Shown in pieces: positions 5,956 through 42,479 of a stretch of 64,000 nt of DNA. A model generated the notes under the pieces. That model worked only from the letters and a program-made list of their open reading frames with translations. It was not told the origin of the DNA and searched no databases. Source of the stretch: an uncultured Acidimicrobiia bacterium. Its GTDB lineage: Bacteria; Acidobacteriota; Terriglobia; Versatilivoradales; Versatilivoraceae. Both the position numbers and the translations under genes were made by a program. The number at the start of each line of letters is the position of its first letter. Position 1 is the stretch's first letter. The stretch lies in NCBI GenBank assembly GCA_963786955.1, contig CAWBAT010000004.1:704001-768000 (forward strand), in the 5' to 3' direction.

Positions 5956-5990
5956 CCATGCATCTCAACTTTCCTTTAGAGAAGGTTTGC

Positions 5991-7061
5991 TTACAGACTT
6001 TTCTGAATCCAATCGAGGACCATCTGCGACACTTCCGGACTGCCAGCGACGAGTCTTGAACCTTTCAAACTGGAGTCGTGGATGATCCGAATCTGGACGG
6101 GAAATCCTGTCCGTTTTTCGAGCTGTTGACAAGAATCGATTGCTGCTGGGTCTCCTTGAGCGGCGATAAACAAAATCGAGTGAGGCTGAAAATTTTGGAT
6201 TCCCTTGGCCCAGGTCTGGGCGATTTCAGCCGTCGGGGAGAGGGCGATTGCAGTCCGGATCTCCTCGAACTTACCAGAAGCAAAGTAAGCCAAATCGGCA
6301 CCGATTCCTCCACCCATACAAGCAATCCGGTTGAAGTCGACCCCCTCCTTTGACTTTAACCACTTCATTGCGGCCTCTATATCGGCCGGAAACTGAATCG
6401 GATCGGTGACCCCGCTCGGCAATGCCTGAACTTTATCGTTTCCATTTAAAGTGCTTTCGCCGTGGCCCCGCAAATCGAGATTCAAGACACCGAATCCTTT
6501 GGGTAGCAAATAGTTTTGGATAAAGGAATCCCAGGAATGACGTTCTTCACCAAGGCCATGAATTAACAGGACGGTCGGGAATTTTTCCTTGGCCCCTATC
6601 GGCTTATACCAATCTGCCACCAATTTAAAGGAAATGCTGCCCCCCGGTTCGATTTCGACCCGATCGGGACGATACGACAGATTTCCGGATTTCGTGTGGA
6701 TCTCTTCCACCAACCCTAGAGTCAGGAAGTTGTCAGCCCTGTCCAGATAACGACTTATCGTCTTCTTCTCCGAAGTCAAGGTTTTGGTTTCGGCATAGAC
6801 AATATAATCGATCTTCGGATCTAGCCCATAGATCGAAAATAATCCTGACTCATCCGAGGTCAATATGGTTGTCTTGTTTTTCGAAGCATCCCGAATAAAG
6901 ACTTTGGCCCCTGCGACGGGCTGATTGGTTTTGTCCACAACTTCACCCCGGATGGTTTTAGTCGGGGGTTCCTTTTTCTTCAGAGCCAGTACCTCACTGT
7001 CGTAAAAAGCGAGGAAAAGCAAGATCCCGATCATGAGCTTGGCGAAAATCCGATGATCCAT
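5991..7061 (-). CDS. Secreted protein: carboxypeptidase-regulatory-like domain plus alpha/beta-hydrolase fold
   Basis: Signal peptide, IRGEVVD..PVAGAKV beta-sandwich, LIHGLG and DLRGHGES hydrolase motifs; nucleophile elbow reads GGGIG. Confidence 0.75.
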   Translation of the reverse strand: MDHRIFAKLMIGILLFLAFYDSEVLALKKKEPPTKTIRGEVVDKTNQPVAGAKVFIRDASKNKTTILTSDESGLFSIYGLDPKIDYIVYAETKTLTSEKKTISRYLDRADNFLTLGLVEEIHTKSGNLSYRPDRVEIEPGGSISFKLVADWYKPIGAKEKFPTVLLIHGLGEERHSWDSFIQNYLLPKGFGVLNLDLRGHGESTLNGNDKVQALPSGVTDPIQFPADIEAAMKWLKSKEGVDFNRIACMGGGIGADLAYFASGKFEEIRTAIALSPTAEIAQTWAKGIQNFQPHSILFIAAQGDPAAIDSCQQLEKRTGFPVQIRIIHDSSLKGSRLVAGSPEVSQMVLDWIQKSL

Positions 7062-7098
7062 TGCCGTCTCCATTCCCCGAGGATACTGCACTAAAAGG

Positions 7099-7494
7099 CT
7101 ATTTCTTCGACGACTCTAACTCAAATTTCAGGATAATGTTCTGTCGCTCGTCCTGTACAAACGAAACCGTTCCCTGGGATGATGCGAACCCTGCCCGTGT
7201 CCCATGAACTACGAAAGTATGGCGACCGGGCGGAAGACGCAGCGCAAATTCACCTCGTGCATCGGAGACCGTTTGCCACTTCTTCACTTTGCCGTGCTTT
7301 TCTTCATTCGTTTGCATCTCTACGCGAATCGTTGCTCCAGGCAAGCTAAATCCCTCGTCATTGGTGCAAGTCCCCACCAGAAGGGCAAAGGGTTCCGGTT
7401 CCTTTTCTTTTGCCACTAGGCTGGCTTCCTGCAAGAAAATAAGAACTCCACAAAGCCCCATCCCTAGGACTGTTTTTTTCCAGGGCCCACTCAT
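7099..7494 (-). CDS. Secreted carboxypeptidase-regulatory-like domain protein
   Basis: Signal peptide; G..LPGATIRV...SDARGEFALRLPPG motif; start codon uncertain. Confidence 0.75.
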   Translation of the reverse strand: MSGPWKKTVLGMGLCGVLIFLQEASLVAKEKEPEPFALLVGTCTNDEGFSLPGATIRVEMQTNEEKHGKVKKWQTVSDARGEFALRLPPGRHTFVVHGTRAGFASSQGTVSFVQDERQNIILKFELESSKK

Positions 7495-7597
7495 TTTCTT
7501 TCTTGTGGCGCTCATCATTCCATGGCACATGCTGAAACTTACCCCAAAAAACGGATGCTTAAAAGTAACACACCATCTCCGGGCCTGCATCTCGGGC

Positions 7598-8641
7598 TTA
7601 GATGGGGTGGAGTCCCGCAAATTCCAATCCGGTCTGCTCTTCCCAACGGTACATCACGTTCATGGCCTGTACCCCATTCCCGGCAGCCCCTTTCATCAAA
7701 TTATCCAGCGCCGAAAGAACGACGAGTCTGTTTTCGTGCGGGTCAAGTTCGAATCCGACATCACAATAATTTGAACCAATTAATAATTTGGGTTCAGGGT
7801 AACGGTAGATCCCGTTCTTTTCTTTGACAATTCGAATAAAGGGCTCATCCCGGTAAACGCTCCGATAGATCTTCCACAATTCTCTTTCCTCGGTTGATTG
7901 CCGGAGGGAGACATGGGCAGTGGAAAGAATACCTCGCACCGCATCGGTGGCCGTAGCTGAGAAATGAATGCGAGGAGTCTCTCCCTCAAAAGTCAGTTCC
8001 TGCCGAATTTCCGCCGTATGTCGATGGCCTGTGGGTTGGAACGAACGCATGGCTCCGCTCCGTTCGGGATGATGAGAAGATAGGCTGGATTTGTTTCCGG
8101 CGGCAGACGATCCGACTTTGCCTTCGATATAAACGTGGCTAGGGTCGGCTATTCCACTCTTAAAGAGCGGATATAACCCCAGGATAGCCGCAGTGGCCAA
8201 ACAGCCAGCACCGGTCACCAGAGTCGCATTCCGGATCGCTTCACGATGTAATTCCGGGATGCCATAAACGGCTTGTTGCAAGTAGCTGGGGTTACTATGT
8301 TCATGTCCATACCAGACAGAATAATCCGCTCCATTGCGCAAACGAAAATCGGCAGAAAGGTCGATGGCTCGCTCAGCCAAAACCAGGAATTCGGAAATAC
8401 GTGTCATCGCCATGCCGTGGGGAAGACACAGGAATATTAGATCCGATTTTTTGAGGTCCGCACTGGCAATGAACTTTAAATCGGTACGCTTTCGCAAATT
8501 GGGGTGAACGGAATAGACAAATTTCCCGGCATTCGATTCGGAGGTTACCTGGCTCACCTCTACTTGAGGGTGACTCAACAAAAGCCGTAACGTCTCTCCA
8601 CCCGTATACCCTGAAGCACCGACGATAGAAACCGAAAGCAT
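7598..8641 (-). CDS. lysY: [LysW]-aminoadipyl-phosphate reductase (ArgC family)
   Basis: GASGYTG NADP-binding loop, GAGCLAT catalytic Cys, DNLMKGAAG; SD AGGAGG. Confidence 0.88.
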   Translation of the reverse strand: MLSVSIVGASGYTGGETLRLLLSHPQVEVSQVTSESNAGKFVYSVHPNLRKRTDLKFIASADLKKSDLIFLCLPHGMAMTRISEFLVLAERAIDLSADFRLRNGADYSVWYGHEHSNPSYLQQAVYGIPELHREAIRNATLVTGAGCLATAAILGLYPLFKSGIADPSHVYIEGKVGSSAAGNKSSLSSHHPERSGAMRSFQPTGHRHTAEIRQELTFEGETPRIHFSATATDAVRGILSTAHVSLRQSTEERELWKIYRSVYRDEPFIRIVKEKNGIYRYPEPKLLIGSNYCDVGFELDPHENRLVVLSALDNLMKGAAGNGVQAMNVMYRWEEQTGLEFAGLHPI

Positions 8642-8804
8642 GTTCCTCCTAGCAAACTACGTTTGATCGCTTCAATCCCTGCTGCCTCGTGGGTCCGGAG
8701 TGGAAGGTATCCCATAGATCTCCCTCCTTCGGGCTCCTGCCAATCAAAGCTTAACGGCCGCGAGGACACATTGTCGAGCAGGAAGACTCGAATGGCTGAA
8801 TGGA

Positions 8805-9653
8805 CTAGTCACCCGCGCTGGCGACCTGGATAACATAGTCGATCACTTTCGCAGGGATGTTGACTCCGGTGGTGTCGATAGAGTTTCTGAACTCCATCGT
8901 GTAATTGACTTCATTGACAAGGAGTCCACGTTCGGTCTCAAAAAGGTCAATAGCCAGCACACCGCCACCAACGGCCCGGGCTGCCTCCAAGGAAAGTCGA
9001 TTGAGTTCTGGGGTAATCAGGCAGTTCTGGGCTTTTCCGCCTCGCGCCGTATTCGTAATCCAATGAGAGGAATACCGGTAGATCGCACAGATCGTTTCGT
9101 CACCGACAACGAAGCTCCGGATATCCCTTCCTTCCTTGGGGATATACTCTTGAATATAGAAGATCGAATGGTGATAAGAGCCCAATATCTCCTTATGCTC
9201 AAGAATCGCCTCTGCAGCCTCCCGATCGTTGACCTTCGACAACAACCGCCCCCATGAACCAACCGCCGGCTTGAGTACCACAGGATAGCCCAACTCTTCA
9301 ATCGCCTGAAGCGCCGACTCCGGAGTGAATGCCAGAATCGTCTGGGGAGAAGGGACTCCTCTTTTGATCAATGCATTCGTGGTCAAGAACTTATTTCCGC
9401 ATGTATCCGCTACCTCGAAGCGGTTCACTGTCTTTACGCCCCAGTCATTCAATACTTTGAGAGCATAAAGCGCACGCGAGTGGTTGACACAGCGTTCGAG
9501 CACCACATCAAAATCCATGTGCTTGGAATTCAAGCGAAAAATCAGCTCGCGATCATCTAATATCTGAAGGTCGATTTGTCGAGAACGAAACTCGTCGATA
9601 AGAAGTTTCTCTTCCTTGCGAACAATCGAACATAAGAGTGCAATTTTCATCAT
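8805..9653 (-). CDS. lysX: LysW ligase (ATP-grasp, RimK/LysX family)
   Basis: [38 protein letters not shown] as in Thermus-type LysX. Confidence 0.92.
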
Positions 9654-9660
9654 GATTGCC

Positions 9661-9729
9661 AAAAAATAAAAAAACCACAGCAGCTTCAAGACCCCCCTTT
9701 AGGGGTGTATCTTGATTTTGTCTGTGGTT
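9661..9729 (-). terminator. Probable intrinsic terminator between lysW and lysX
   Basis: Minus strand AACCACAG..TCAAGA..CCCCTAAAGGGG..TCTTGA..CTGTGGTT hairpin followed by TTTTTATTTTTT. Confidence 0.6.
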
Positions 9730-11908: not shown

Positions 11909-12199
11909 CTAATCGTTTTTTGATCCGGGCAGACCCAGAACGGTTGGGCCATGTTCTTTTTCCATCTCTTGCAACAAAGCCTCAAGAACTTCTCCCGCCG
12001 TTCCAGGGCGCTCCATCTTAGATGACCAGTGCCATTCATCAAGATACTCATCGCTTCCAATGAGGCCTTCCACCATAGCTACGCGGTCGATGGCCTGCTG
12101 GAAAGAATCCGGCAGAGGACGTGAAACTGGCTTGGATCCTTCGAAGACTTTGATCTGCGCCGGGATGTCACGCCAGTAAAGGATTTGATATTGAGCCAT
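11909..12199 (-). CDS. Small 'virulence factor'-domain protein of the type found in corrinoid/folate gene clusters
   Basis: ILYWRDIPAQ...FQQAIDRVAM..GL..SDEYLDEW signature. Confidence 0.75.
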   Translation of the reverse strand: MAQYQILYWRDIPAQIKVFEGSKPVSRPLPDSFQQAIDRVAMVEGLIGSDEYLDEWHWSSKMERPGTAGEVLEALLQEMEKEHGPTVLGLPGSKND

Positions 12200-12375
12200 C
12201 TTTTGGTCCTTTCATTGAAGGGTCTCTCCCAAGCACCCCATAGATCGAGAGCCCCGTTTGTCCCAACTCAATGCTTTTTGGCCACAGTGCGAGCTCGCTG
12301 TTGGCATGGCCGAGAGGCCCTTGTTTGAAGGCCTTTTAAGTATCCCTGGTGTCGGGCGAGCTTGCCGCGAAGGGT

Positions 12376-13431
12376 TTAACCGGCCCCAATTCCCGCCTCA
12401 AGCTCTTTACTCCGATAGGCACGAAGGAAGCTGCGACAGCCGATGTCACGGCCAAGCAACAGGTCAGCAGCCACCTGGTAGCTTCGGGATTGCCGGTCCA
12501 TTGCAAACACCTGATCCACTCGACCCGCTGCCGGATCAATGATGCCACTGTCGATCCCCGCTTCGGTGGCCAGAATGAGGAAGACGTTGTTTACCAGTCG
12601 GCGCATCGGAAGCCCGAAGGATACATTACTGAGCCCGCCGGTGATATGGATTTCCGGTCCGAACTTTTCGCGAAGTCTGCGTACTGCCTCGAAATAGTGG
12701 TTCCCAAAATCGCTGTCGACCGATATCGGAAACACCAGAGCATCAATGTAGAGATCCCGAAGAGGAATCCCTTTCTTCAGAGCCAGTTCGACAATTCGCG
12801 TTGCATTGTCAATTCGCTCGACCTCATCTTTCGGCATACCGCTTTCTCCTGCCGCCGACACAACCACTTGAGCTCCAAATTGAACTGCCAAATCCAACGC
12901 CATGATTCGTTCCAATGAAGCGGAATTCAGCAGGGGTTGGCCAGAATGTCCCTGGCAAGCTTCCAAGCCCGCACGAATCGTTTCCGTGTTGGAAGAATCC
13001 ACTGAAAGTGGAACCGGGCATACGGGACGCACAGCGTCGACCAGCCATAGCATGGCCGCTTTTTGGCTTTCGGGACGCAAAGAAACCTCATCGACGTTCA
13101 AATCAATGAAATCGGCTCCGGCATTCAGCTGGACCCGAACCTTCTGGTGCAAATACTCCAAACCCAGCGAGGCTCCAGGCTCTTGCCCCGACATCGCTGC
13201 CTGAATCGCAATTTTGATGTGCTTGATACGCCCTTCCTGGTATTCCTGTGTTTTCTTGTACTCCTCCGGAATGGGGAGATAACGCGGTTCCCCATTGGCC
13301 CCGGTGAACCGGACCGATTCCTGCCCTTCTTCAGTGGTGGTAACAAACTGCCCCCCTCGAAGGAGAATCCTTGTCGCGTGGATATTCTCACCAATAACGA
13401 TGAAATTTCTTCCCAGAGCTTTAATCTCCAT
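12376..13431 (-). CDS. Pterin-binding methyl-THF:corrinoid methyltransferase (AcsE/MeTr-like)
   Basis: IGENIH, IDLNVD, SVDSS, LLNS, YIDAL, GGLSNVSFGLP.R DHPS-like barrel motifs. Confidence 0.88.
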   Translation of the reverse strand: MEIKALGRNFIVIGENIHATRILLRGGQFVTTTEEGQESVRFTGANGEPRYLPIPEEYKKTQEYQEGRIKHIKIAIQAAMSGQEPGASLGLEYLHQKVRVQLNAGADFIDLNVDEVSLRPESQKAAMLWLVDAVRPVCPVPLSVDSSNTETIRAGLEACQGHSGQPLLNSASLERIMALDLAVQFGAQVVVSAAGESGMPKDEVERIDNATRIVELALKKGIPLRDLYIDALVFPISVDSDFGNHYFEAVRRLREKFGPEIHITGGLSNVSFGLPMRRLVNNVFLILATEAGIDSGIIDPAAGRVDQVFAMDRQSRSYQVAADLLLGRDIGCRSFLRAYRSKELEAGIGAG

Positions 13432-13494
13432 TGTGTCTCTCCTGATGATCCGTTATTCCCCTCTTTAACGATTATTTGTTGCACCGAGACTTTA

Positions 13495-15072
13495 TCACGA
13501 TCTTCTTCGACTATGATCCCTCCCGAGAAATTTGTTCATCCAGCCACTGGTCCCTTTGAGAGCAGCATTTTTGATCACTACCGGTCTCTTGAGCATATCT
13601 TCCTCTCCCCCATAGGCCTTGAGTCGATCATAGGACAGCGACCAGATACACTCCTTCTCTCCAACTTCGCATTTGCCACGCCGTGTTCCACCACAAGGGC
13701 CATTCCTCTGGTTTTTGGCACATTGGGATTCCGGGCATAGGTAGGCAATATCCGGTAGTGAGCAATCGCCGCAATCCCGGCAATCGAAGGCAGCGACTTT
13801 CACTCCGTATTCAAGAGCATGCAAGGTTTTCCGCAAAACGCCGTCGGATTTTTCGACCGCTTCACTAATCCACTTTCCTGTCCGAAACCCCAAAGTGTCT
13901 TCAACGAAAACTTTATCATGCGTTAATCGGTTTATCTTGTAACTCAGCGGCACCTGGCGGCGCAAACTTGCCAGCGCTTCCGGAGACTTAGACCGCAGAT
14001 AGGCGCGATTGACCTCCGTTGAATTCAGTCCTGTTTCCAGATCAGGCTCAAAGTAGTAAAATTCGTCGGGCTGATGAAATTGAATCTCTCGAGCAAAATC
14101 TTTCCAATCGTTCTCCCCAAAGCTTTTGATCAATTCCAAGAGCCTTTCAAAATCTCCGTAATCCCAGTGCCCGCCCAAATAGGCACCACGAAACCCCAAC
14201 CCCTTGGCCACGGCGCATTGTTTGGCGGCAAATTCCAATAGGAAAGCTTTGCCTTTGTCCGGAGACTGGGCCTGCTTCTCAACCAGCGTTAACAATTCGT
14301 CCGTGACCACGCAGCCAGGAATTTTATCGGCGTGGAAAAAACGTGCGATGGGCAGACTTAAGACAAACACGTTGGCTAGCACCGGGGCCCTCAAGTGGTG
14401 GAGAGCCATGTACTTTAACAGTTCATCATGTTTTCGCGAGTCAAATCCAATCTGGGTGATAATGAATGAGGCGCCGCATTCTATTTTCTTGGCAAGCTTA
14501 AAATACTGGGGCATCACCTCACGTTCATAGCGTTTGTGATTATTGACCACCGCTCCCAAGAAGAAATGAGTCTGTTCCATCTTGCGTGTTTGACCATTGG
14601 GAAGGGTCAACTCCAAACCGGCATTCATTTCGGAGTACATCTTCAACAACGCTACCGAATCGATATCAAATACGGCACCGGCCTGACCTTGATAGCCATC
14701 GGCCGGAAAGTCACCGGAGAGAGCCAGGATGTTGTTGAACCCTTCACTAGCCAGTTGCCAGCCTCGACTTTGCAATGCATTCCGGTTCCAGTCTTTGCAC
14801 GACAAGTGAATAATGACTTCCTGTCCACGCGAGATAAGATCGGTTCCAAAAGCGTCCGCACCAATCATGGCGTTGCCACCCGGATTGTCGGTGATGCTTA
14901 GCGCATGCACTTGGGGATGCTCTGAAAGTTGCCTGGCCAAATGCAGGACTTTCCGTCCATTGCGACCTGTAATGAGCCCTCGCGAGGTCACTAGTTCTGC
15001 CACCGTGACAAATGTATCCGTTTCCTCGATAAGCTCACGCAAAGGCATTTTCGGCCATTCACCGGGTTGCAT
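13495..15072 (-). CDS. metF: Methylenetetrahydrofolate reductase with fused C-terminal MetV-like Cys-rich domain
   Basis: ITDNPGG, HLSCKD.N, LSGD, KK...GASFIITQ; C-terminal CRDCGDC..C....C.K..RNGPCGG...C.....CIW. Confidence 0.88.
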   Translation of the reverse strand: MQPGEWPKMPLRELIEETDTFVTVAELVTSRGLITGRNGRKVLHLARQLSEHPQVHALSITDNPGGNAMIGADAFGTDLISRGQEVIIHLSCKDWNRNALQSRGWQLASEGFNNILALSGDFPADGYQGQAGAVFDIDSVALLKMYSEMNAGLELTLPNGQTRKMEQTHFFLGAVVNNHKRYEREVMPQYFKLAKKIECGASFIITQIGFDSRKHDELLKYMALHHLRAPVLANVFVLSLPIARFFHADKIPGCVVTDELLTLVEKQAQSPDKGKAFLLEFAAKQCAVAKGLGFRGAYLGGHWDYGDFERLLELIKSFGENDWKDFAREIQFHQPDEFYYFEPDLETGLNSTEVNRAYLRSKSPEALASLRRQVPLSYKINRLTHDKVFVEDTLGFRTGKWISEAVEKSDGVLRKTLHALEYGVKVAAFDCRDCGDCSLPDIAYLCPESQCAKNQRNGPCGGTRRGKCEVGEKECIWSLSYDRLKAYGGEEDMLKRPVVIKNAALKGTSGWMNKFLGRDHSRRRS

Positions 15073-15074
15073 CG

Positions 15075-16724
15075 CTATCCCTTCCTTCCGGGAACCGCCA
15101 AAGAGACAATGTCGTTCGGCATTGGCTTGAATTGGCAGCCCTCAACAAAAAGCTCGAAGAAATCAGGTATGGTTTCCAACTCAATGTGAGTAATATTCTT
15201 TAACAATTTCTGAATGAAATCCCTCCGACTCCTTGAAACTAAAAATTCCCATGCGCCCTGGACTGAGGCATTCCCGATCTTCACGACTCGTTCCTGCGGG
15301 ACAGGTGCCAGAAAACCAATCTCCATGGCATTGGCCACATCCACGTAATTGGCGAATCCCCCCGCCAGGTAGAGTTTCCGAATATCGGCCGGGCCCACGC
15401 CAAATTCCCGCATCAGGATGTATTGCCCGCAATAGTTGGCAGCTTTGGCCTGGGCCAGATAACTGGCATCCTCCCGAGAGAAGGTGATGCCGTATTCTGG
15501 CACGATGTCCAGGACATACTTCTTGTCTTTAAAAACCCCTTTGGGTGTCATGAGTTCATGGCATCGCAATTCTGCCAGCAGGTCTATGAGACCAGAGCCA
15601 CAAATTCCCTGCGGGGCAACATCGCCAATCGTCCGGTAGTCAAACTCCCCTGCCTTCCAGGAAAAACTCTCGATGGCGCCATCACAGCCCGGCATCCCAA
15701 ACTTGACCGCACCTCCTTCAAAGGCGGGCCCGGCCGGACAGGAAGCAATCAACATCCGGCCCGCATGCCCGATGACGACCTCAGTGTTGGTCCCGACATC
15801 CACGACCATGACCACGTCCTGTTGGGAGTCCATGTCCATCGCCAGTAAATCCGCCACCGTATCGGCGCCAACATGACTCGCGATCAACGGCATGCCGTAA
15901 ACCCTGGCTTTGGGATGAACCTGGATGCCAAGCTTACTCGCCTTTTCAATTAAGGCCGTATCCTGACGTTTTCCTGCAAGCATTTCTAATTCGATGACCG
16001 ATTTGTACGGCTTCTGCCCGATGCTCTGCACATCGATGTCGAAAAACAAGTCTCTCATCGTGGAATTTCCCGCCACGACAATTTCGTAGATCTCTTCACG
16101 ATTCACGCCGGCGATTCGGCAAATTTCTCGAACCTCATGATTCAGGGCGTGAATGATCGACTTGTGTAATTCCCCATGAAACCGCCCCCCGTCATAAGAA
16201 ATCCGGTGCATCACATCGCTTCCCCCAAACCGCTGCGGGTTATCAAAAGAGCTCAAGTAAAGGGAGGAACCCGTTTCCAGATCGACCAGGTCACACACCA
16301 CCGTCGTAGTGCCCAGATCCATCGCGATTCCGTAAAGATGGCCACGATACCGGTCAATCGGTTCCTCCCCGTAATACACTTCATTCCCCCGGTGTGTCAC
16401 CTGGGGATCCATTTGGAGGGATTTCTCCTGACGGGAAGTGAGGATTTTGGAGCGCCGGCGCCATGGCACAAAGCGGATGTCAAGGGTCGGATTTTCGATT
16501 TTCGCCTGGCAGGCAAGCCGGCATGGATTTCGCAGGAAAGATTCCGCTTGAGTAGTCGAATTCAATGCGTCCAGACCTTCGACAACCTCAACAATGCACT
16601 CATGGCAGGTCCCTTTGCGCCCGCAGGTGCTCGGTAATGGGACGGCAAGAACATCCGCGCATTCAAACAGAGACTCCCCGTAATTCCCCAAACACAATCT
16701 TCCTTCACAGGATATGGTCGCCAT
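15075..16724 (-). CDS. ATP-dependent reductive activator of corrinoid proteins (RACo; 2Fe-2S plus ASKHA)
   Basis: CGRKGTCHEC...RLACQ ferredoxin; DLGTTT, GSDVMHRI, DVGTNTE, AGPAFEG, GICGSG. Confidence 0.92.
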   Translation of the reverse strand: MATISCEGRLCLGNYGESLFECADVLAVPLPSTCGRKGTCHECIVEVVEGLDALNSTTQAESFLRNPCRLACQAKIENPTLDIRFVPWRRRSKILTSRQEKSLQMDPQVTHRGNEVYYGEEPIDRYRGHLYGIAMDLGTTTVVCDLVDLETGSSLYLSSFDNPQRFGGSDVMHRISYDGGRFHGELHKSIIHALNHEVREICRIAGVNREEIYEIVVAGNSTMRDLFFDIDVQSIGQKPYKSVIELEMLAGKRQDTALIEKASKLGIQVHPKARVYGMPLIASHVGADTVADLLAMDMDSQQDVVMVVDVGTNTEVVIGHAGRMLIASCPAGPAFEGGAVKFGMPGCDGAIESFSWKAGEFDYRTIGDVAPQGICGSGLIDLLAELRCHELMTPKGVFKDKKYVLDIVPEYGITFSREDASYLAQAKAANYCGQYILMREFGVGPADIRKLYLAGGFANYVDVANAMEIGFLAPVPQERVVKIGNASVQGAWEFLVSRSRRDFIQKLLKNITHIELETIPDFFELFVEGCQFKPMPNDIVSLAVPGRKG

Positions 16725-16790
16725 CTTAGAAGCATCCGGGGCAGGAGACCCATTCTCTAACCGCGTGTCTCTCTTTCCCCTGGTTCCTCG

Positions 16791-17030
16791 CTATGATTCC
16801 CAGGCACCGCGATAGTCTAACTGATCGTCCCCGGCACAAATTGGCAGGCTGCCTGCGTCCGGAGATTTCCGCTTGTTCCGGCATCCGAAGTTTGCAGTGC
16901 ACTGATTGAGGCGGTTCTTATAGGGGCAACGGCATTGGGAGAGTTCGTCGGCATGAACAACCATACTGGCAAATAATTCTGTGAGCTGATTTAAACTTCT
17001 TTGATAGCGCTCCGGATCTATTTTTTGCAT
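16791..17030 (-). CDS. Small Cys-rich hypothetical protein
   Basis: 79 aa, starts 3 nt after the corrinoid-protein stop; CRCPYK..CTANFGCRN..CAGDD. Confidence 0.75.
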   Translation of the reverse strand: MQKIDPERYQRSLNQLTELFASMVVHADELSQCRCPYKNRLNQCTANFGCRNKRKSPDAGSLPICAGDDQLDYRGAWES

Positions 17031-17033
17031 ATC

Positions 17034-17798
17034 TTATGAATTCCTAACACCGGCCTTCACGCCAAGCAATTGCTTCGCTAGTGCCACACATGCCATTGCA
17101 TCTTTCCCGTAACCGTCGGCCCCCATATCATCGGCAAAATCCTGAGTGACCGGAGCCCCTCCGACCATGATTTTGACCTCATCCCGAAGTCCTGCATCAA
17201 TGAAGGCCTCGATCGTCTTGCCCATGTTCGGCATCGTTGTCGTCAACAAAGCTGACATCCCGAGGAGAGGGGCATGGTGCTCTTCAAATGCCTCGATGAA
17301 ACGGTCAGGCGACGTGTCCACGCCTAGGTCATGAACAATAAACCCTGAACCTCGTAACATCATGATGCACAGATTCTTCCCAATGTCATGGAGGTCACCC
17401 TTGACTGTTCCCATGATCACGGTTCCCATCGGTTTAATGCCCGAGGCCGAAAGAATCGGCTCAATGTGACACATACCAGCTTTCATCGCACGAGCGCAAG
17501 CCAAAACCTCCGGAACATAAATGAAGTTCTGCCGGAATTTGATCCCTACGATCGCCATCCCGGCAATCAATCCGTTGTCCATGACATCCAGAGCCTCAAA
17601 TCCTTTATCCAGGGCTTGGCGCGTCAACTGGTCAACGCCCTTATTTTCCCCTTCGATCAGGGCTGCCGCAATGGCCTGGAGTTCCGGATGCGCTTTGGCA
17701 AACAATTGGATGATGCGCGCCCGTTCCTCCGGTCGTTCTATATATTCTTCTATTTCTGTTCGAATGAACTCATTTTGAATATCGTTGACTTCGACCAT
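17034..17798 (-). CDS. Corrinoid (cobalamin-binding) protein
   Basis: Cap helices plus GDLHDIGKN (DxHxxG), SALLTTT, VGGAP. Confidence 0.95.
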   Translation of the reverse strand: MVEVNDIQNEFIRTEIEEYIERPEERARIIQLFAKAHPELQAIAAALIEGENKGVDQLTRQALDKGFEALDVMDNGLIAGMAIVGIKFRQNFIYVPEVLACARAMKAGMCHIEPILSASGIKPMGTVIMGTVKGDLHDIGKNLCIMMLRGSGFIVHDLGVDTSPDRFIEAFEEHHAPLLGMSALLTTTMPNMGKTIEAFIDAGLRDEVKIMVGGAPVTQDFADDMGADGYGKDAMACVALAKQLLGVKAGVRNS

Positions 17799-17915
17799 GA
17801 AGACCTCATCAAAAATGGAATATGGGCATGACTTCGTGCCGGTGTCGGCGCCCCTGGCCCCCGGCTGGTAGAGGACCGGCTAGAATGCGTCCCTGTAATA
17901 CCGGCGATTCCAGTT

Positions 17916-18989
17916 TCAGGCGGTGGTTCCTGGCGCCGCCTTGGTGCGGTGCTCTCGATGCCAGTCACGCACAGCCTTGGGAATCTCCTTCAGGTTCTCA
18001 ATGGCTGTTTGAAGGGGTATAGCGCATTCGGGACCGACTAGCTGTACACCGGCCTCCAGATTCTTATAGACTTCCCGACGGACTTCTTCAGGACCTTTCG
18101 AGAAAAGCGTCTCCGGATTATTGATATTCCCGACCAGGGAGATGCGGTTTCGTACAACGTTCATTGACTCCACCGGCTCGTTTTTTGAGTCGTAATGGAA
18201 GGCGGCCATTCCTGTCTGCGCGATATATTCCATGCGGTCTACGGTCTTGCCGCAGATATGCAAAATAATGGGAGCAGGCAGTCGCTCGGCAAATTCCACA
18301 TGGAGATCACGCAGGTAACGGGCGTAATATTCACCGCTGACCAAATCACCCGTGGCATGATCCGGCAAGGTCAAAGCGTCCGCTCCCGCTTCGATCTGGG
18401 CTAAACCAAACAAGACCGTGATTTCTTTGAGCTTGTCGAGGACAGCTTTGGTCTTTCCCGGGTCATCTAATGACAACAGCAAAAAGGGTTCCACTCCAAA
18501 GCAGTGATAAGCCAGGGACCAGGGCCCCATCGTTTTCCCAATAATGGCTACGGCATCGCCCAATTCTTTTCTGAGCAGCTTGATTGCCTGAAGCACACAC
18601 TGCATGTCGGGATGTTTCAGAAGATTCGAAGGAATTTGAATATCGTCAACATCCTGCCAAATCGGCTCACGCATTTTAACGGTCGGCCAGTTGTCTTTTT
18701 GTTCCCACTGAATCTTGCATCCTAATGCTGAAGATTCCTGGATAATGCTGAAGACCGGCATCACACTATCGAAACCTAACTCGGTATGCCCGGTCGCGGC
18801 CAGACGGGCCATAGTTTCCGGAACGCGATTGGCATCCGGAAAGGGAGCATCCACCAGGTCCATCAGCTCTACGGTGGCTACTGATGTTGGATTGCAAACT
18901 GGCGTTTGATCCACGGGTTCACGGCGCAAAGCCGCGAGAACGCGTTGCCGCCCGGTCATGGGAGGAATGGTCTGACCTACACTGTGCAT
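17916..18989 (-). CDS. MtaA/CmuA-family (UroD-fold) methyltransferase
   Basis: GPWSLA, GADAL, ILHICG and GPECAIP (H-x-C...C zinc motif), GNINN; SD AAGGAG. Confidence 0.88.
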   Translation of the reverse strand: MHSVGQTIPPMTGRQRVLAALRREPVDQTPVCNPTSVATVELMDLVDAPFPDANRVPETMARLAATGHTELGFDSVMPVFSIIQESSALGCKIQWEQKDNWPTVKMREPIWQDVDDIQIPSNLLKHPDMQCVLQAIKLLRKELGDAVAIIGKTMGPWSLAYHCFGVEPFLLLSLDDPGKTKAVLDKLKEITVLFGLAQIEAGADALTLPDHATGDLVSGEYYARYLRDLHVEFAERLPAPIILHICGKTVDRMEYIAQTGMAAFHYDSKNEPVESMNVVRNRISLVGNINNPETLFSKGPEEVRREVYKNLEAGVQLVGPECAIPLQTAIENLKEIPKAVRDWHREHRTKAAPGTTA

Positions 18990-19033
18990 CTCATTCTCCT
19001 TTACACAATTGTCAACGGAGGATACGTGCTGAG

Positions 19034-19690
19034 CTAGAGATTCATCGATTGATTCTGGGCGCTAGGTGGCGCAAGAATACCCTTCGACGCCGCCAACTCC
19101 TGCTCCCGGAGCACAGCCCGAACATTCAAGGCCCTCCCGAGCAGTAGACCAATGAGTGGATCGTGTCGTTGGCCGCAGGGAAAGGAAAGCTGATTCGAAC
19201 CCTGTTCTTCTATCCGCAATTCAGCAAGTTTAGTCAACCCTTGGGCGACAGCGGAAATCCGGAGGGGCTTCTCTTCATTGTCCGGGCCATCCGCCGTCAA
19301 CTCATAGCTGAACCCCGGACCCATGGTCACCCGGATCGTCCGATTTGATTTCTTGTCGAAGATTAACAACTCTTTGGGAACCAACAAACTTCCATTCGGT
19401 ATCTTGCAAACTTCCAGAAAGACCCGTCTACAAGCCTTCAGATGGTCCCCATGGCAAGGAAAACGAACCCGCCCCGAGCCATCCTGGAGAAACTCCATCC
19501 CTCCCAAAGTGACCATTCCCTCGCCGATAAACCGGATTCGGTCCATCGCTTCCGGGCGTTGACTATAAGTATGGACCAGAAATTCCGGCCCCCGACCATG
19601 GTCTTGTAGATAAAGCGCAATCGAGATGTTCAGGCAATGGGGGTCCATCGACACCAGCTCAATGCGCTTGCCAATATCGATCGTAAGCAT
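19034..19690 (-). CDS. Hypothetical protein with duplicated FPC-x3-H motif
   Basis: ATG 19690 after GAGGAGA; FPCHGDH and FPCGQRH; first gene of the operon. Confidence 0.75.
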   Translation of the reverse strand: MLTIDIGKRIELVSMDPHCLNISIALYLQDHGRGPEFLVHTYSQRPEAMDRIRFIGEGMVTLGGMEFLQDGSGRVRFPCHGDHLKACRRVFLEVCKIPNGSLLVPKELLIFDKKSNRTIRVTMGPGFSYELTADGPDNEEKPLRISAVAQGLTKLAELRIEEQGSNQLSFPCGQRHDPLIGLLLGRALNVRAVLREQELAASKGILAPPSAQNQSMNL

Positions 19691-19780
19691 CTTGATCCAA
19701 TCTCCTCGAAATGGGTTCCAGCCAACTTGCCCCAAATTTTCTTGACCGGCATCCGGTCATTCCGTTAACCTTGGAGTCAG

Positions 19781-19807
19781 TTCTCAGGTTGTCTGACAAC
19801 TTGAGAA
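19781..19807. promoter_or_regulatory. Palindromic FadR/GntR-type operator
   Basis: TTCTCAGGTTGTCTGACAACTTGAGAA, near-perfect 27-bp palindrome with core TTGTCNGACAA resembling FadR-subfamily boxes. Confidence 0.75.
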
Positions 19808-19832
19808 TACGATCAATTTTTTCCCTTGTAAA
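19804..19832 (-). promoter_or_regulatory. Sigma-70 promoter of the methyltransferase operon
   Basis: Minus strand TTTACA-17 nt-TATTCT; the -10 box overlaps the operator. Confidence 0.65.
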
Positions 19833-19851
19833 GCAAAATTCAGTAGTTTTT

Positions 19852-20019
19852 GTAATGCGTTAGTTACGGGGGGAAATCTGTAAGGGCAAGGCCTTCGGTG
19901 ACGATTTGAGATTGTCGCTTCTGTAGCGGCTGAGTGGCTAGGGACGGACCGCCGGGCCGTCCGCGGCGCGCTCGGCGAGCGCGCCCTACCAGAAATCCCC
20001 CCGATAACTAACGCATTAC
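19852..20019. mobile_element. MITE-like element enclosing a REP-like doublet
   Basis: Perfect 15-bp terminal inverted repeat GTAATGCGTTAGTTA/TAACTAACGCATTAC, extending imperfectly inward; internal GC palindromes ending in CCCTACC. Confidence 0.55.
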
Positions 20020-20240
20020 TAGTTTTTTTGCTTAAGAAGTCTGCCTTGGGGTCGGCCCAATGGGCAGAGAAATTGAGCACCCCTTCAGAGCCTAAGGGCA
20101 GAAACAATGTGTGATGGTATGGACGAAACTTGCAGGCCGCAACTTCGAAACCCGAGAGGCATCCAACGGGCTTCCCACAGCCGAGAATGTTGATGACGCG
20201 CGTCAGCTCAAAAAAATTGCCCAGCCATTCAATGCCGGCT

Positions 20241-20972
20241 ATGAAACCGATCATCCGGACATCTTTGAGTGATGAGATTGTCGAACGGATTATCGTTCTG
20301 ATCTCGGAGAGAGTGCTTAAACCCGGAGAACGTCTTCCTTCTGAGAAGGACTTGGCCAGCCAGTTTGGAGTGGGACGCACCACCGTTCGGGAGGCCCTGC
20401 GTTCTCTCGCAGTATTGGGAATTGTGGACGGGCGAGTCGGTGAAGGGACATTTGTTTCCAGCACAAACCGGCGTTACCTCGAAAAAGCGTTACAGTGGGG
20501 CTTGTTGATTGACCGGAAAGATGTCCAGGATTTGATTGAAACGCGCCTTCTCCTCGAATCACAGACCGCCTATTGGGCGGCTCACCGGGCAAATCAAGGC
20601 AATCTTAAGGAAATCGCAGAAGCCATTCAAGGAATGGTGCAATCGATTCATGACCCTGAAGGCTATTTGCGGTCTGATTTGAAGTTCCACATTTCCATTG
20701 CGCAATCCAGTCAGAACTCTATCCTTTATCACCTCGTCAGCATGACGCGCGGATATCTTCAAGCCTGGATCCAAAGAAGTCTCTCTCGCCCGACTCCTCG
20801 CAAAGCTCAGCAGCGGGCAGAGATTTCAATCCAAGAACATCGGAATATCTTTCAAGCCATTCGGTCCGGAGATGCTGAGGGAGCCCGTCAGGCCATGAGT
20901 GCGCATATCCTTTCGAGCAGCCAAGACCTACAGTCCTGGCTGGCCCGGAAAAAAATCCCGAAGGGAGGCTAG
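20241..20972 (+). CDS. FadR/GntR-family transcriptional regulator (wHTH-FCD)
   Basis: LKPGERLPSEKDLASQFGVGRTTVREAL, DLKFH, EHRNI; start at 20232 or 20241. Confidence 0.93.
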   Translation: MKPIIRTSLSDEIVERIIVLISERVLKPGERLPSEKDLASQFGVGRTTVREALRSLAVLGIVDGRVGEGTFVSSTNRRYLEKALQWGLLIDRKDVQDLIETRLLLESQTAYWAAHRANQGNLKEIAEAIQGMVQSIHDPEGYLRSDLKFHISIAQSSQNSILYHLVSMTRGYLQAWIQRSLSRPTPRKAQQRAEISIQEHRNIFQAIRSGDAEGARQAMSAHILSSSQDLQSWLARKKIPKGG

Positions 20973-20978
20973 AGACTC

Positions 20979-21833
20979 TTGAGACAGACGGCAAAGCTGC
21001 TGGTTTCCTGCAACGATCGGAAAGGACTGGTCGCTCACATTTCGGATTTCATCTATCGAAATGGCGGTAACATTCTGGACTTCGACCATCACACAGACCT
21101 CGAAGCCGGCGTATTCCTGGCCCGGATAGAATGGGAGCTCAAAGACTTCCAGATTCCAAGTACTCAAATCGCCGCAGCTTTTTCGAGCCTGGCCTCGGAT
21201 TTTCAAATTCGTTACCAGGTCTACCTTGGCGACCAGGTCCCTAAGATTGCCATCTTTGTCTCGAAACTGCCTCACTGCCTGGTTGACCTGCTTTTGCGAA
21301 ATCAGGCTGGAGAGTTCAAAGCGGACATCACATTGATTCTCAGTAATCATACTGATGTCGAGGAAATTGCGAGGTCATTCGGGATTCCGTTCATGCATTT
21401 CCCCATCACGCCACAGAACAAAGTGCAACAGGAAGAAGCCCAGATTCGAGAGATTCTCCACCGAGAAGTCGAGCTGATTGTTCTGGCGCGATATATGCAA
21501 ATTCTCAGTGAGCATTTTGTGTCAACTTTTCCGAACCGCATCATCAACATTCACCATTCTTTTTTGCCTGCCTTCATTGGAGCGGCCCCTTATCATCAAG
21601 CCTTTGCGCGAGGAGTCAAATTAATCGGAGCAACAGGCCATTACGTGACGACGGCGCTCGACAATGGCCCCATCATTGAACAGGAAACAGCCCGGGTGAG
21701 TCATCGGGACTCAGTTGAAGATTTGATCCGGAAAGGACGCGACCTGGAAAAATCAGTGCTGGCACGCGCCGTGCGTCTCCATTTATTGCGTAAAGTTCTG
21801 ACTTATGGGAATAGGACTGTTGTCTTCGACTGA
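20979..21833 (+). CDS. purU: Formyltetrahydrofolate deformylase
   Basis: N-terminal ACT domain, VSKLPHCL, LARYMQILS, INIHHSFLPAF.GA.PY, RGVKLIGAT. Confidence 0.96.
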   Translation: MRQTAKLLVSCNDRKGLVAHISDFIYRNGGNILDFDHHTDLEAGVFLARIEWELKDFQIPSTQIAAAFSSLASDFQIRYQVYLGDQVPKIAIFVSKLPHCLVDLLLRNQAGEFKADITLILSNHTDVEEIARSFGIPFMHFPITPQNKVQQEEAQIREILHREVELIVLARYMQILSEHFVSTFPNRIINIHHSFLPAFIGAAPYHQAFARGVKLIGATGHYVTTALDNGPIIEQETARVSHRDSVEDLIRKGRDLEKSVLARAVRLHLLRKVLTYGNRTVVFD

Positions 21834-41340: not shown

Positions 41341-41462
41341 TCTTATTCGGAGGATCCTTACCAATCGTTGATCTGCGAGCCGGTCTTCCGAACTGCGACG
41401 ACCGGCACATTCACGGACCCTCTTTCTCCTTTCCTCACAAGATTTGAATAAGCCCTCTGAGC

Positions 41463-42451: not shown

Positions 42452-42479
42452 CTAGGATCACACCAATTCGAATTTCGGC

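What the first reader, a model, noticed from the sequence alone, without database searches (positions are those of the whole stretch)
11909..21833. Candidate undescribed cobalamin-dependent methyl-donor oxidation system with its own regulator and purU
Seen: eight co-oriented genes (hypothetical, MtaA/CmuA-family methyltransferase, corrinoid protein, Cys-rich small protein, RACo, MetF-MetV fusion, AcsE-like methyltransferase, 'virulence factor' domain) diverging from FadR/GntR and purU. Established: in the Methylobacterium cmu pathway, CmuA (methyltransferase plus corrinoid), CmuB, MetF, FolD and PurU oxidise chloromethane to formate. Acetogen demethylases use MT1, corrinoid protein, MT2 and an activating enzyme. 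Inference: this locus is a hybrid, with a split CmuA-like front end, acetogen-type activator, MT2 and MetVF, and a PurU exit. It would strip a methyl group from an unknown donor (methyl halide, methyl thiol/sulfide or O/N-methyl compound) in a probable Acidobacteriota. folD and CODH/ACS genes are not in the window.
Basis: partly seen in the sequence, partly recalled or inferred. Interest (0 to 1): 0.88.

Follow-up and report, generated by a model that had tools for sequence, protein, structure and literature searches.

The report
B12 methyl-transfer hub, unknown methyl donor
This is a real, regulated operon for a vitamin-B12-dependent methyl-shuttling system whose core resembles one recently described in marine bacteria, but its substrate-side enzyme, a methanogen-type zinc methyltransferase always paired with an undescribed protein, is uncharacterised and widespread in soil, sediment and sponge bacteria.

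Summary
The eight co-oriented genes, the divergent GntR/FCD regulator and purU are all present as described.

Synteny is conserved across phyla. hyp and MT are adjacent in 80 of 80 related loci. Of 66 loci with at least 9 kb downstream, 43 carry cp, 42 RACo, 39 pter and 34 metFV.

The "split CmuA / acetogen hybrid" reading is only partly right:
- The MT is MtaA-like: 187 bits to PDB 4ay7 against 36.6 bits to CmuA.
- The corrinoid protein, pterin methyltransferase, RACo and MetF-MetV resemble the MtgC/MtgD/RamA/MetF2 hub of Ruegeria (PMC12478193). That hub serves both demethylation and methionine synthesis.
- A PF02574 homocysteine module sits in the cluster in 21 of those 66 loci. In this genome it is fused to a second MTHFR elsewhere.
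- No MetH was found here, but both same-genus genomes have one.
- purU linkage is limited to part of this family.

The MtaA-like enzyme and its 218-aa partner are undescribed. The partner has no Pfam match and no fold match, and it is predicted to bind the MT at its zinc site.

The methyl donor is unknown; my guess is an S-methyl compound.

This scan has already noted the same module on other DNA.

The parts
19034..19690 (-). hyp: 218-aa partner of the MT. It is a new family made of a tandem duplication of a beta-beta-beta-alpha-beta-alpha unit. C79, H83, C172 and H176 are invariant, and the C-terminal tail is conserved. The ORF is open back to a TTG at 19735.
   Evidence: No Pfam or NCBIfam hit. 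Alignment A1. AF2 model pLDDT 88.2, pTM 0.82. Adjacent to the MT in 80 of 80 loci. At least 1507 protein clusters, all named hypothetical or unnamed. Predicted complex with the MT.
17916..18989 (-). MT: MtaA/CmuA-family (URO-D superfamily) zinc methyltransferase with a His244-x-Cys246...Cys322 site.
   Evidence: PF01208 220.6 bits. TIGR01463 252.3 bits against cut-off 235.4; NF040654 MtaA 235.2 bits against cut-off 400. PDB 4ay7 MtaA 187.3 bits, with HxC and the second C aligned. 79-89% identical across phyla.
17034..17798 (-). Corrinoid protein: B12-binding cap plus B12-binding domain, with a D-x-H-x-x-G motif.
   Evidence: PF02607 70 bits, PF02310 93 bits. MtgC, pyl_corrinoid and MetH B12-domain models. 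35% identity to the CmuA C-terminal domain. The motif was read from the translation.
16791..17030 (-). 79-aa protein with four invariant Cys (C35, C44, C50, C65). It is a partner of RACo.
   Evidence: No Pfam hit. Alignment A4. Fused to the N-terminus of RACo in all 7 loci checked for this (L017, L019, L022, L033, L048, L052, L091; their record titles name Poribacteria, Latescibacterota and Planctomycetota).
15075..16724 (-). RACo/RamA-type ATP-dependent reductive activator of corrinoid proteins, with an N-terminal ferredoxin-like domain.
   Evidence: PF14574 215 bits, PF17651 153.5 bits, Fer2 18 bits. AcsV model 287.8 bits, below cut-off 800.
13495..15072 (-). Methylene-THF reductase with a MetV-type C-terminal domain (a MetF-MetV fusion). 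It takes the position of MetF2 in the Ruegeria system.
   Evidence: PF02219 51.3 bits and PF12225 89.7 bits. A second MTHFR, fused to PF02574, lies at C5:1530036-1531859.
12376..13431 (-). Pterin-binding methyl-THF:corrinoid methyltransferase (AcsE / MtgD / MetH-module type). It is the only pterin-binding module found in the genome.
   Evidence: PF00809 79.3 bits. PRK07535 203.5 bits, metH 126.8 bits. Single hit in the genome-wide phmmer and TIGR02082 searches.
11909..12199 (-). 96-aa PF13769 ('Virulence_fact') protein, a small alpha/beta protein of unknown role. It follows pter.
   Evidence: PF13769 67.6 bits. Present in 34 of 66 loci. AF2 pLDDT 84. No PDB sequence or fold match.
19789..19799 (.). 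Candidate FadR/GntR-type operator, the palindrome TTGTCTGACAA. It lies just downstream of a promoter-like site at 19832-19804 on the minus strand.
   Evidence: Sequence. A GTCWGAC-core palindrome occurs in 39 of 44 gntR-hyp intergenic regions of related loci. Promoter-like sites were not more frequent than in shuffles, 6 against a mean of 8.8.
20241..20972 (+). GntR-family regulator with an FCD ligand-binding domain, divergent from the operon. The ORF is open from 20130.
   Evidence: PF00392 72.9 bits, PF07729 90.3 bits. Nearest models are NanR, LldR, PdhR and GlcC, all below their cut-offs. Present in 36 of 66 loci.
20979..21833 (+). purU, formyl-THF deformylase.
   Evidence: TIGR00655 384.7 bits against cut-off 285.95. 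Linked to the cluster in 3 of 80 loci overall, and in 5 of 9 family loci that reach past gntR.

Best explanation
This is a GntR-repressed operon for a modular cobalamin 'methyl hub'.

Proposed mechanism:
1. The MtaA-like zinc methyltransferase works as a complex with the 218-aa partner hyp. It takes a methyl group from a small methylated compound and puts it on Co(I) of the corrinoid protein. The donor is unknown. My best guess is an S-methyl compound such as methanethiol, dimethylsulfide, 3-methylthiopropionate or another methylthio acid or sugar. A methyl halide is not excluded.
2. The pterin-binding methyltransferase passes the methyl group on to THF.
3. The MetF-MetV fusion oxidises methyl-THF to methylene-THF.
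4. FolD, then PurU or Fhs, carry it on to formate.
5. RACo, together with the 4-Cys protein, reduces Co(II) back to Co(I) when the cofactor is oxidised.

The same corrinoid protein and pterin methyltransferase can run in reverse. They would load the corrinoid protein from methyl-THF and hand the methyl group to a PF02574 homocysteine module. Here that module is fused to a second MTHFR at C5:1530036-1531859. The hub would then double as a split methionine synthase.

Shown: gene content, conserved synteny, the conserved operator, domain identities, and which pathway genes are present elsewhere in the genome.
Inferred: the direction of flux, the donor, the MT-hyp complex (a prediction only), and the dual use for methionine.
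For: Domains.

Synteny and regulation:
- hyp and MT are adjacent in 80 of 80 loci. Of 66 loci with at least 9 kb downstream of the MT, cp is present in 43, RACo in 42, pter in 39, metFV in 34, vf in 34, gntR in 36 and PF02574 in 21.
- A conserved operator palindrome is present in 39 of 44 gntR-hyp regions.
- No riboswitch was found anywhere in the 64-kb window, which includes the operon.

Published model (PMC12478193; Results and Discussion read):
- MtgC and MtgD are each required for both glycine betaine demethylation and methionine synthesis.
- MetF2, next to mtgD, was the most induced protein on N-osmolytes.
- RamA reactivates the cofactor.

This genome:
- One pterin module, two corrinoid proteins and two RACo genes.
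- No MetH over cut-off.
- One PF02574 domain, fused to MTHFR.
- FolD and Fhs present, AcsB and MttB not found.
- A B12 uptake operon behind the genome's only cobalamin riboswitch.

MetH distribution:
- Within the family, of 16 genomes scored for both features: 5 are hyp+ MetH+, 7 are hyp+ MetH-, 4 are hyp- MetH+, and none are hyp- MetH-.
- In 10 genomes reached through Poribacteria, Latescibacterota and Versatilivoraceae loci (one, G004, appears to be the same genome as family member G188), MetH over cut-off is present in 3 and absent in 7.

Zinc site: His-Cys-Cys, as in MtaA. In the URO-D superfamily this pattern is reported for S-methyltransferases and proposed for Se-methyltransferases (PMC10418091, Results read).

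MT-hyp complex model: score 0.86, best of 3 controls 0.00. That mark was reached by 58 of 80 solved complexes and 2 of 110 mismatched pairs, and these counts hold only roughly because my own alignments were used. The runs agree in at least 69% of contacts, and the partner's pLDDT is at least 85. The interface includes MT residues 246 and 322-323 and hyp residues 201 and 203-210.

Expression: contigs from three RNA libraries (two studies), at 92% likeness or more, cover parts of most genes. Some cross the vf-pter, metFV-RACo and cys-cp junctions. This is weak evidence, because DNA can be present in such libraries.
Against: - Direction is not shown. MtaA and MtbA, the nearest characterised enzymes, unload methyl groups to a thiol.
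- Demethylation of a thioether by Co(I) is thermodynamically unfavourable (MtpA, 10.1101/548461, abstract).
- CmuA also aligns His-x-Cys and the second Cys. The His-Cys-Cys rule therefore does not exclude a halide.
- Both same-genus genomes carry a full MetH, and this assembly is 93.3% complete. The missing MetH here may be an assembly gap. Five of 12 hyp+ family genomes keep MetH.
- Two short MetE-like genes exist in this genome.
- In 23 of 66 loci hyp-MT stands without the rest of the cluster. In two such Poribacteria genomes no separate pterin module was found.
- No transporter or substrate-specific enzyme is conserved next to the cluster.
Confidence: 0.55

Rival explanations
1. Methyl sink. 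Flux runs from methylene-THF through MetF-MetV, the pterin MT and the corrinoid protein to the MT-hyp complex. The complex then methylates a thiol, sulfide or selenide acceptor, as MtaA methylates coenzyme M. The product would be a cofactor, a volatile methyl sulfide or selenide, or a detoxified compound.
For: - The nearest characterised relatives, MtaA and MtbA, are methylcobamide:thiol methyltransferases.
- The zinc site is His-Cys-Cys.
- Transfer from methylcobalamin to a thiol is the favourable direction for MtpA (10.1101/548461, abstract).
- An Mlp2 enzyme methylated selenide in vitro (PMC10418091).
Against: - A second, separate MTHFR fused to the homocysteine module already serves the reductive direction.
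- A divergent FCD-type GntR repressor and an adjacent purU fit catabolism better.
- By analogy, the MetF2 next to mtgD works oxidatively (PMC12478193).
Confidence: 0.2
2. Methionine synthase only. The operon is simply a fully split, RACo-reactivated methionine synthase, and the MtaA-like enzyme with hyp is its homocysteine methyltransferase.
For: - No MetH was found in this genome, and its only pterin module lies here.
- 7 of 12 hyp+ family genomes lack MetH, against 0 of 4 hyp- ones.
- Zinc-thiolate chemistry would suit homocysteine.
Against: - A PF02574 homocysteine module co-occurs in the same cluster as the MT in 21 of 66 loci, and one exists in this genome. The MT is therefore not a replacement for it.
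- The module is kept in genomes that have a full MetH: G001, G008, G009, G161, G162, G164, G166 and G170.
- Regulation is by a GntR/FCD repressor, and no SAM or B12 riboswitch was found.
Confidence: 0.1
3. The front end is a split CmuA-type methyl halide dehalogenase, or an O- or N-demethylase of the acetogen type, and it feeds a dedicated oxidation route that ends at PurU.
For: - The gene set parallels cmuA, cmuB, metF, folD and purU. purU also lies near cmuA on pCMU01.
- CmuA shares the His-x-Cys...Cys positions.
- The corrinoid protein is 35% identical to the CmuA corrinoid domain.
Against: - MT against CmuA gives 36.6 bits and 26% identity over 225 aa. MT against MtaA gives 187 bits.
- pCMU01 did not appear among the plasmid hits at E 1e-5.
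- O-demethylases of this superfamily are reported to replace the Cys ligands with carboxylates (PMC10418091).
- purU is linked in only 3 of the 80 best loci.
Confidence: 0.12

Closest known systems
MtgB-C-D-E / MetF2 / RamA corrinoid hub of Ruegeria pomeroyi, and the three-part split MetH of Phaeobacter inhibens (PMC12478193; PMC5764234 seen as a search listing only)
   Same: - A separate corrinoid protein.
- A separate pterin-binding methyltransferase next to a second MetF.
- A RamA/RACo-type activase.
- A separate PF02574 homocysteine module.
- The host is probably an aerobe: FolD and Fhs present, no ACS found.
- MetH is often missing from genomes that carry it.
   Different: - The substrate-side methyltransferase is not an MttB-family MtgB; none was found in the genome. 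It is an MtaA-like URO-D enzyme with a new obligate partner.
- All parts lie in one operon with a GntR/FCD regulator.
- The MetF carries a MetV-type domain.
- A 4-Cys protein and a PF13769 protein are added.
- DUF1638 is not in this cluster.
- There are no genetic data.
Soluble methylcobamide:CoM methyltransferases of methanogens and their relatives (MtaA, MtbA, MtsA, MtpA)
   Same: - Best structural and sequence match is MtaA, PDB 4ay7, at 187 bits.
- TIGR01463 is above its cut-off.
- The zinc ligands are His-Cys-Cys.
- It works with a separate MtaC-type corrinoid protein.
   Different: - It scores below the equivalog cut-offs of MtaA (235 against 400) and MtbA (193.5 against 600).
- It is bacterial, in genomes with no evidence of methanogenesis.
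- It is always paired with hyp.
- It is linked to THF, not to CoM.
Type 1 mlp gene clusters of anaerobes (Kountz and Balskus preprint, PMC10418091)
   Same: - MtaA-like bacterial methyltransferases with a His-Cys-Cys site.
- A corrinoid protein and a RACE/RACo activase.
- A proposed role in methyl-sulfur or methyl-selenium metabolism.
   Different: - Those clusters hold two or three Mlps, lack a THF methyltransferase, and occur only in obligate anaerobes, mostly Firmicutes.
- This cluster has one MT plus hyp, a pterin MT and a MetF.
- It lies in phyla not reported there.
cmu chloromethane pathway of Methylorubrum extorquens CM4 (CmuA, CmuB, MetF2, FolD, PurU)
   Same: The logic is the same: methyl donor to corrinoid to THF to formate. 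purU is nearby. The corrinoid domain is 35% identical.
   Different: - CmuA is a fusion, and its MT domain is only 26% identical over 225 aa (36.6 bits).
- The CmuA corrinoid domain has Gln where this corrinoid protein has the His ligand.
- CmuA has no hyp partner.

Membership tests
MtaA/CmuA family methyltransferase (TIGR01463, URO-D superfamily) | Score above the curated family cut-off | tested here: met
   TIGR01463 252.3 bits against 235.4; NF004889 255.2 bits against 244.
MtaA/CmuA family methyltransferase (TIGR01463, URO-D superfamily) | Zinc ligands His-x-Cys and a distal Cys | tested here: met
   ILHICGK and GPECAI align with VLHICGN and APGCGI of MtaA 4ay7. H244 and C322 are invariant, and C246 is at least 90% conserved in 28 sequences.
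MtaA or MtbA proper (methylcobamide:CoM methyltransferase equivalogs) | Score above the equivalog cut-off | tested here: not met
   NF040654 MtaA 235.2 bits against 400; NF041608 MtbA 193.5 bits against 600.
CmuA (chloromethane methyltransferase / corrinoid fusion) | MT domain fused to a corrinoid-binding domain, with close sequence similarity | tested here: not met
   MT and corrinoid protein are separate genes. MT against CmuA of pCMU01 gives 36.6 bits, 26% identity over 225 aa.
MtgBCDE-type aerobic corrinoid hub / split methionine synthase | Separate corrinoid protein, separate pterin-binding MT next to a MetF paralogue, and a RamA/RACo activase | tested here: met
   Compared with the description in PMC12478193.
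MtgBCDE-type aerobic corrinoid hub / split methionine synthase | MttB-family (PF06253) substrate methyltransferase MtgB | tested here: not met
   No PF06253 match in the genome, which is 93.3% complete.
MtgBCDE-type aerobic corrinoid hub / split methionine synthase | Separate PF02574 homocysteine-binding module (MtgE) | tested here: met
   One PF02574 domain in the genome, fused to MTHFR at C5:1530036-1531859. In-cluster in 21 of 66 related loci. Adjacent to purU in L100.
MtgBCDE-type aerobic corrinoid hub / split methionine synthase | The corrinoid protein and pterin MT are required for both demethylation and methionine synthesis | not testable with these tools
   This needs genetics. The only data here are on distribution.
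Acetogen-type O-demethylase (MT I, CP, MT II, AE) | MT I of the OdmB/VdmB/MtvB clade, with carboxylate in place of the Cys zinc ligands | tested here: inconclusive
   No reference sequence of that clade was at hand. The MT keeps His-Cys-Cys. By the rule quoted in PMC10418091 that argues against an O-demethylase.
Type 1 mlp gene cluster | At least an Mlp2 and an Mlp3, with no THF methyltransferase | tested here: not met
   The operon has a single URO-D gene and includes a pterin-binding MT.
Canonical MetH | One polypeptide carrying the Hcy, pterin, B12 and activation modules | tested here: not met
   TIGR02082 matches only separate pieces. The best is 170.7 bits against a cut-off of 1010.85.

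The most novel reading that the evidence does not exclude
The MT-hyp pair is an oxygen-tolerant demethylase for S-methyl compounds such as dimethylsulfide, methanethiol, 3-methylthiopropionate or methylthio sugars. It loads a shared corrinoid protein. From there methyl groups go straight to homocysteine to make methionine without folate, or to THF for oxidation. This would be an unrecognised route for organosulfur methyl groups in soils, sediments and sponge symbionts. hyp would be a new kind of active-site subunit whose conserved C-terminal tail reaches the zinc centre.
Probability: 0.3. Interest if true: 0.85.

Novelty: new variant of a known kind. Interest (0 to 1): 0.66.

Why it matters
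The MT is 79-94% identical across at least six phyla. It was found at 526 confirmed places in a collection holding one genome per species. No function is known for it or for its partner.

If it harvests methyl groups, it adds a substrate class to the aerobic corrinoid hubs described in 2025. It would also widen the demand for cobalamin in soils, sediments and sponges.

If the hub also makes methionine, automated annotation that looks only for MetH or MetE will wrongly call these organisms methionine auxotrophs.

The partner protein is a new fold-level family with a probable metal site. It is a straightforward target for expression and structural work.

Tried and rejected
**hyp**
- Foldseek against PDB gave a best E of 0.057 with TM about 0.24.
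- VIA-align wide gave a best Z of 7.5, rmsd 2.9 over 92 residues, to a urea carboxylase domain. That is within the range the tool calls common.
- The protein atlas gave no usable hit.
- A search for longer, fused forms found one 517-aa protein with an MTHFR domain and 64% coverage of hyp. It is a single case and may be a gene-calling artefact.

**vf (PF13769)**
- No PDB sequence match at E up to 1, and no Foldseek match.
- No paper was found for the family name.

- It could not be done. The 150 best 50%-identity representatives carry no names.
- The ten I looked up are called only 'MtaA/CmuA family methyltransferase' or nothing.
- I used HMM scores and pairwise comparisons instead.

**Other searches**
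- Plasmid collection: no relative above 30% identity.
- Rfam: only a tRNA in the window.
- Promoter-like and terminator-like sites were not more frequent than in shuffles.
- Comparison with the second URO-D-like gene on C9 gave only insignificant fragments.

**Substrate clues from neighbours**
Gfo/Idh/MocA oxidoreductases, a HAD hydrolase, a xylose-isomerase-like TIM barrel, an enolase-superfamily enzyme, an aldo-keto reductase, an amino-acid permease and a PhyH-like dioxygenase each occur in subsets of loci. None is conserved across phyla, so I drew no conclusion.

**MetH correlation at phylum level**
Not attempted, because hyp was found in only 4 of 151 sampled genomes.

**Supplements**
They may list this clade or other substrate-side methyltransferases.

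Full report
**Observation**

On the minus strand there are eight closely spaced genes, with gaps of 2 to 176 bp:
- hyp, 19034-19735. Its likely start is 19690, judged from alignment A1.
- An MtaA/CmuA-family URO-D methyltransferase, 17916-18989.
- A corrinoid protein, 17034-17798.
- A 79-aa Cys-rich ORF, 16791-17030.
- RACo, 15075-16724.
- An MTHFR with a MetV-type C-terminal domain, 13495-15072.
- A pterin-binding methyltransferase, 12376-13431.
- A PF13769 protein, 11909-12199.

Divergent from them lie a GntR/FCD regulator (20241-20972; the ORF is open from 20130) and purU (20979-21833).

**Organism**

The nearest public loci are titled Terriglobia and Acidobacteriota. One family-mate has identical match coordinates. 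It lies in a record titled Candidatus Versatilivoraceae, which is Acidobacteriota, Terriglobia. The DNA runs that hold much of the stretch are labelled sediment metagenomes.

**Conservation**

The MT is extraordinarily conserved. The 120 best database proteins are 79-94% identical to it. The record titles name Poribacteria, Latescibacterota, Acidobacteriota, Gemmatimonadota, Planctomycetota and Lentisphaeria.

In the 80 best loci hyp sits directly upstream of the MT in 80 of 80. Among the 66 loci with at least 9 kb downstream, the counts are:

| Gene | Loci of 66 |
|---|---|
| cp | 43 |
| the 4-Cys ORF | 42 |
| RACo | 42 |
| pter | 39 |
| gntR | 36 |
| metFV | 34 |
| vf | 34 |
| PF02574 homocysteine methyltransferase | 21 |
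| purU | 3 |

In 23 of the 66, hyp-MT stands alone.

Within the host phylum the module is sporadic: hyp was found in 4 of 151 evenly sampled genomes, counting this one. Within the host family it is common: 11 of 15 other family genomes have it, against 0 of 10 from other families of the class. Very high identity across phyla, together with this patchiness, points to horizontal spread of a tightly constrained module.

**Regulation**

A palindrome with a GTCWGAC core lies between gntR and hyp in 39 of 44 related loci. In the window it reads TTGTCTGACAA at 19789-19799, just downstream of a promoter-like site. Promoter-like sites as a class are no more frequent here than in shuffles. No riboswitch lies in the window. 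So the 'own regulator' claim holds.

The purU claim holds only for part of this family. purU is next to gntR in 5 of 9 family loci that reach past gntR.

**What the core is**

The corrinoid protein, pterin methyltransferase, RACo and second MetF match the architecture published in 2025 for Ruegeria pomeroyi (PMC12478193; Results and Discussion read):
- MtgC (corrinoid protein) and MtgD (pterin methyltransferase) are each needed for both glycine betaine demethylation and methionine synthesis.
- MtgE (PF02574) binds homocysteine.
- MetF2, next to mtgD, was the most induced protein on N-osmolytes.
- RamA reactivates the cofactor.
- About 70% of the genomes with MtgBCD lacked MetH.

The parallels here are direct:
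- In 21 of 66 related loci a PF02574 gene lies inside the cluster.
- In this genome the only PF02574 domain is fused to a second MTHFR at C5:1530036-1531859.
- In one family-mate that fusion gene lies next to purU and the cluster (L100).
- This genome's only pterin-binding module is the one in this operon.
- It has FolD and Fhs. No acetyl-CoA synthase and no MttB were found.
- It has a B12 uptake operon behind its single cobalamin riboswitch.

**MetH**

No MetH over cut-off was found here. I do not lean on this. The assembly is 93.3% complete, and both same-genus genomes have a full MetH as well as the cluster.

The wider pattern is still suggestive. Among 16 family genomes scored for both features:

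| | MetH present | MetH absent |
|---|---|---|
| hyp present | 5 | 7 |
| hyp absent | 4 | 0 |

The hyp+ MetH- group includes a one-contig, 100%-complete genome. In 10 genomes reached through Poribacteria, Latescibacterota and Versatilivoraceae loci, 7 lack MetH over cut-off. One of these, G004, appears to be the same genome as G188. Kin are not independent and the numbers are small.

Two short MetE-like genes exist in this genome. Their role is open.

**What is new**

The substrate-side pair is new. The MT is MtaA-like:
- 187 bits to M. mazei MtaA (PDB 4ay7), with the His-x-Cys and distal Cys zinc ligands aligned and conserved.
- Below the equivalog cut-offs for MtaA and MtbA.
- Far from CmuA: 36.6 bits, 26% identity over 225 aa.

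The corrinoid protein is 35% identical to the CmuA corrinoid domain, but it keeps the His that CmuA replaces with Gln.

hyp has these features:
- No Pfam, NCBIfam, atlas or fold match.
- It forms at least 1507 clusters, each labelled hypothetical or left unnamed.
- Its model is confident (pLDDT 88.2) and shows a duplicated beta-beta-beta-alpha-beta-alpha unit.
- Each half carries an invariant Cys-x3-His, and the C-terminal tail is conserved.

A complex model supports binding of hyp to the MT. The score is 0.86 and the best of 3 controls is 0.00. That mark was reached by 58 of 80 solved complexes and 2 of 110 mismatched pairs, and these counts hold only roughly because my own alignments were used. 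The runs agree in at least 69% of contacts, and the partner's pLDDT is at least 85. The modelled interface includes the zinc Cys residues 246 and 322 of the MT and residues 201 and 203-210 of hyp. This is a prediction, not a measurement.

The 4-Cys ORF has four invariant Cys. In all 7 loci checked for this, whose record titles name Poribacteria, Latescibacterota and Planctomycetota, it is fused to the N-terminus of RACo. That ties it to reactivation.

**Direction and donor**

These are inferred. Four points favour a methyl-harvesting direction:
- The repressor type and its conserved operator.
- The absence of SAM or B12 riboswitches.
- The presence of a separate MTHFR fused to the homocysteine module.
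- The analogy to MetF2, together with the retention of the module in genomes that have MetH.

The preprint PMC10418091 (Results read) states that URO-D-superfamily S-methyltransferases have His-Cys-Cys, and proposes the same pattern for Se-methyltransferases, while O-demethylases replace the Cys residues. On that rule the donor would be an S-methyl or Se-methyl compound. However, CmuA also aligns these three residues, so a halide is not excluded. In addition, the MtpA work shows that thioether demethylation by Co(I) is unfavourable (10.1101/548461, abstract). Neighbouring genes give no consistent clue.

**Expression**

Contigs from three RNA libraries of two studies, at 92% likeness or more, cover parts of vf, pter, metFV, RACo, cp, hyp, gntR and purU. 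Some cross gene junctions. The tool warns that DNA can be present in such libraries, and that a contig across two genes does not show one transcript.

**Literature**

Searches with terms for MtaA, corrinoid, Acidobacteria, Poribacteria, SAR202, methanethiol, split methionine synthase, PF13769 and Versatilivor found no description of this cluster. Supplements could not be read.

The chloromethane system CdmBCA was seen as abstract and outline only (PMC13222342). It is described there as close to O-demethylases.

Earlier notes of this scan describe the same module in eight other genomes, with the same reading. I reached the hub reading before seeing them.

**Verdict**

This is a real, conserved operon. 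Its core is a member of a recently described kind, and its substrate module is uncharacterised. I class it as a new variant of a known kind.

Noticed in passing
window 19852-20019: A 168-bp palindromic repeat lies in the gntR-hyp intergenic region. It has long terminal inverted repeats and a predicted fold of -101 kcal/mol. The genome gave 49 BLAST hits; 29 of the 40 printed, besides the query's own, are near full-length (142-184 bp) at 92-99% identity. In a DNA run the depth in this bin is 127, against about 7 on either side. It looks like a MITE or REP-type element.
   Followed up: partly
G000:C9:134773-145156 (L095): A second corrinoid set: a GH38 alpha-mannosidase-like gene, an enolase-superfamily gene, a distant URO-D-like gene (419 aa), a corrinoid protein, DUF1638 and RACo. 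It has no pterin methyltransferase of its own, so it would have to share the one in this window. It may be a demethylase for a methylated sugar.
   Followed up: partly
window 40066-45335, and genome-wide: Another URO-D-family gene (42480-43631) sits between an MFS sugar transporter and an SDR plus an M24/creatinase-like gene. The genome gives 28 URO-D matches (27 over the family cut-off) but holds only two corrinoid proteins.
   Followed up: no
G000:C5:394115-399519 (L098): The genome's only cobalamin riboswitch precedes a BtuB-like receptor followed by BtuF, BtuC and BtuD-like genes. The receptor reads as two ORFs, one with the Plug domain and one with the barrel. This could be a frameshift or an assembly error.
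   Followed up: no
window 5152-9689: Genes of LysX/LysW-type (alpha-aminoadipate) lysine or arginine biosynthesis: an amino-acid kinase, a semialdehyde dehydrogenase and a LysX/RimK ATP-grasp enzyme.
   Followed up: no
L066 15191-18859: In one Acidobacteriota locus a 1222-aa ORF on the opposite strand, directly after vf, matches the cp, pter and PF02574 queries. It looks like a canonical MetH lying next to the cluster.
   Followed up: no
window 31531-37476: A 1981-aa ORF on the minus strand. I did not examine it.
   Followed up: no
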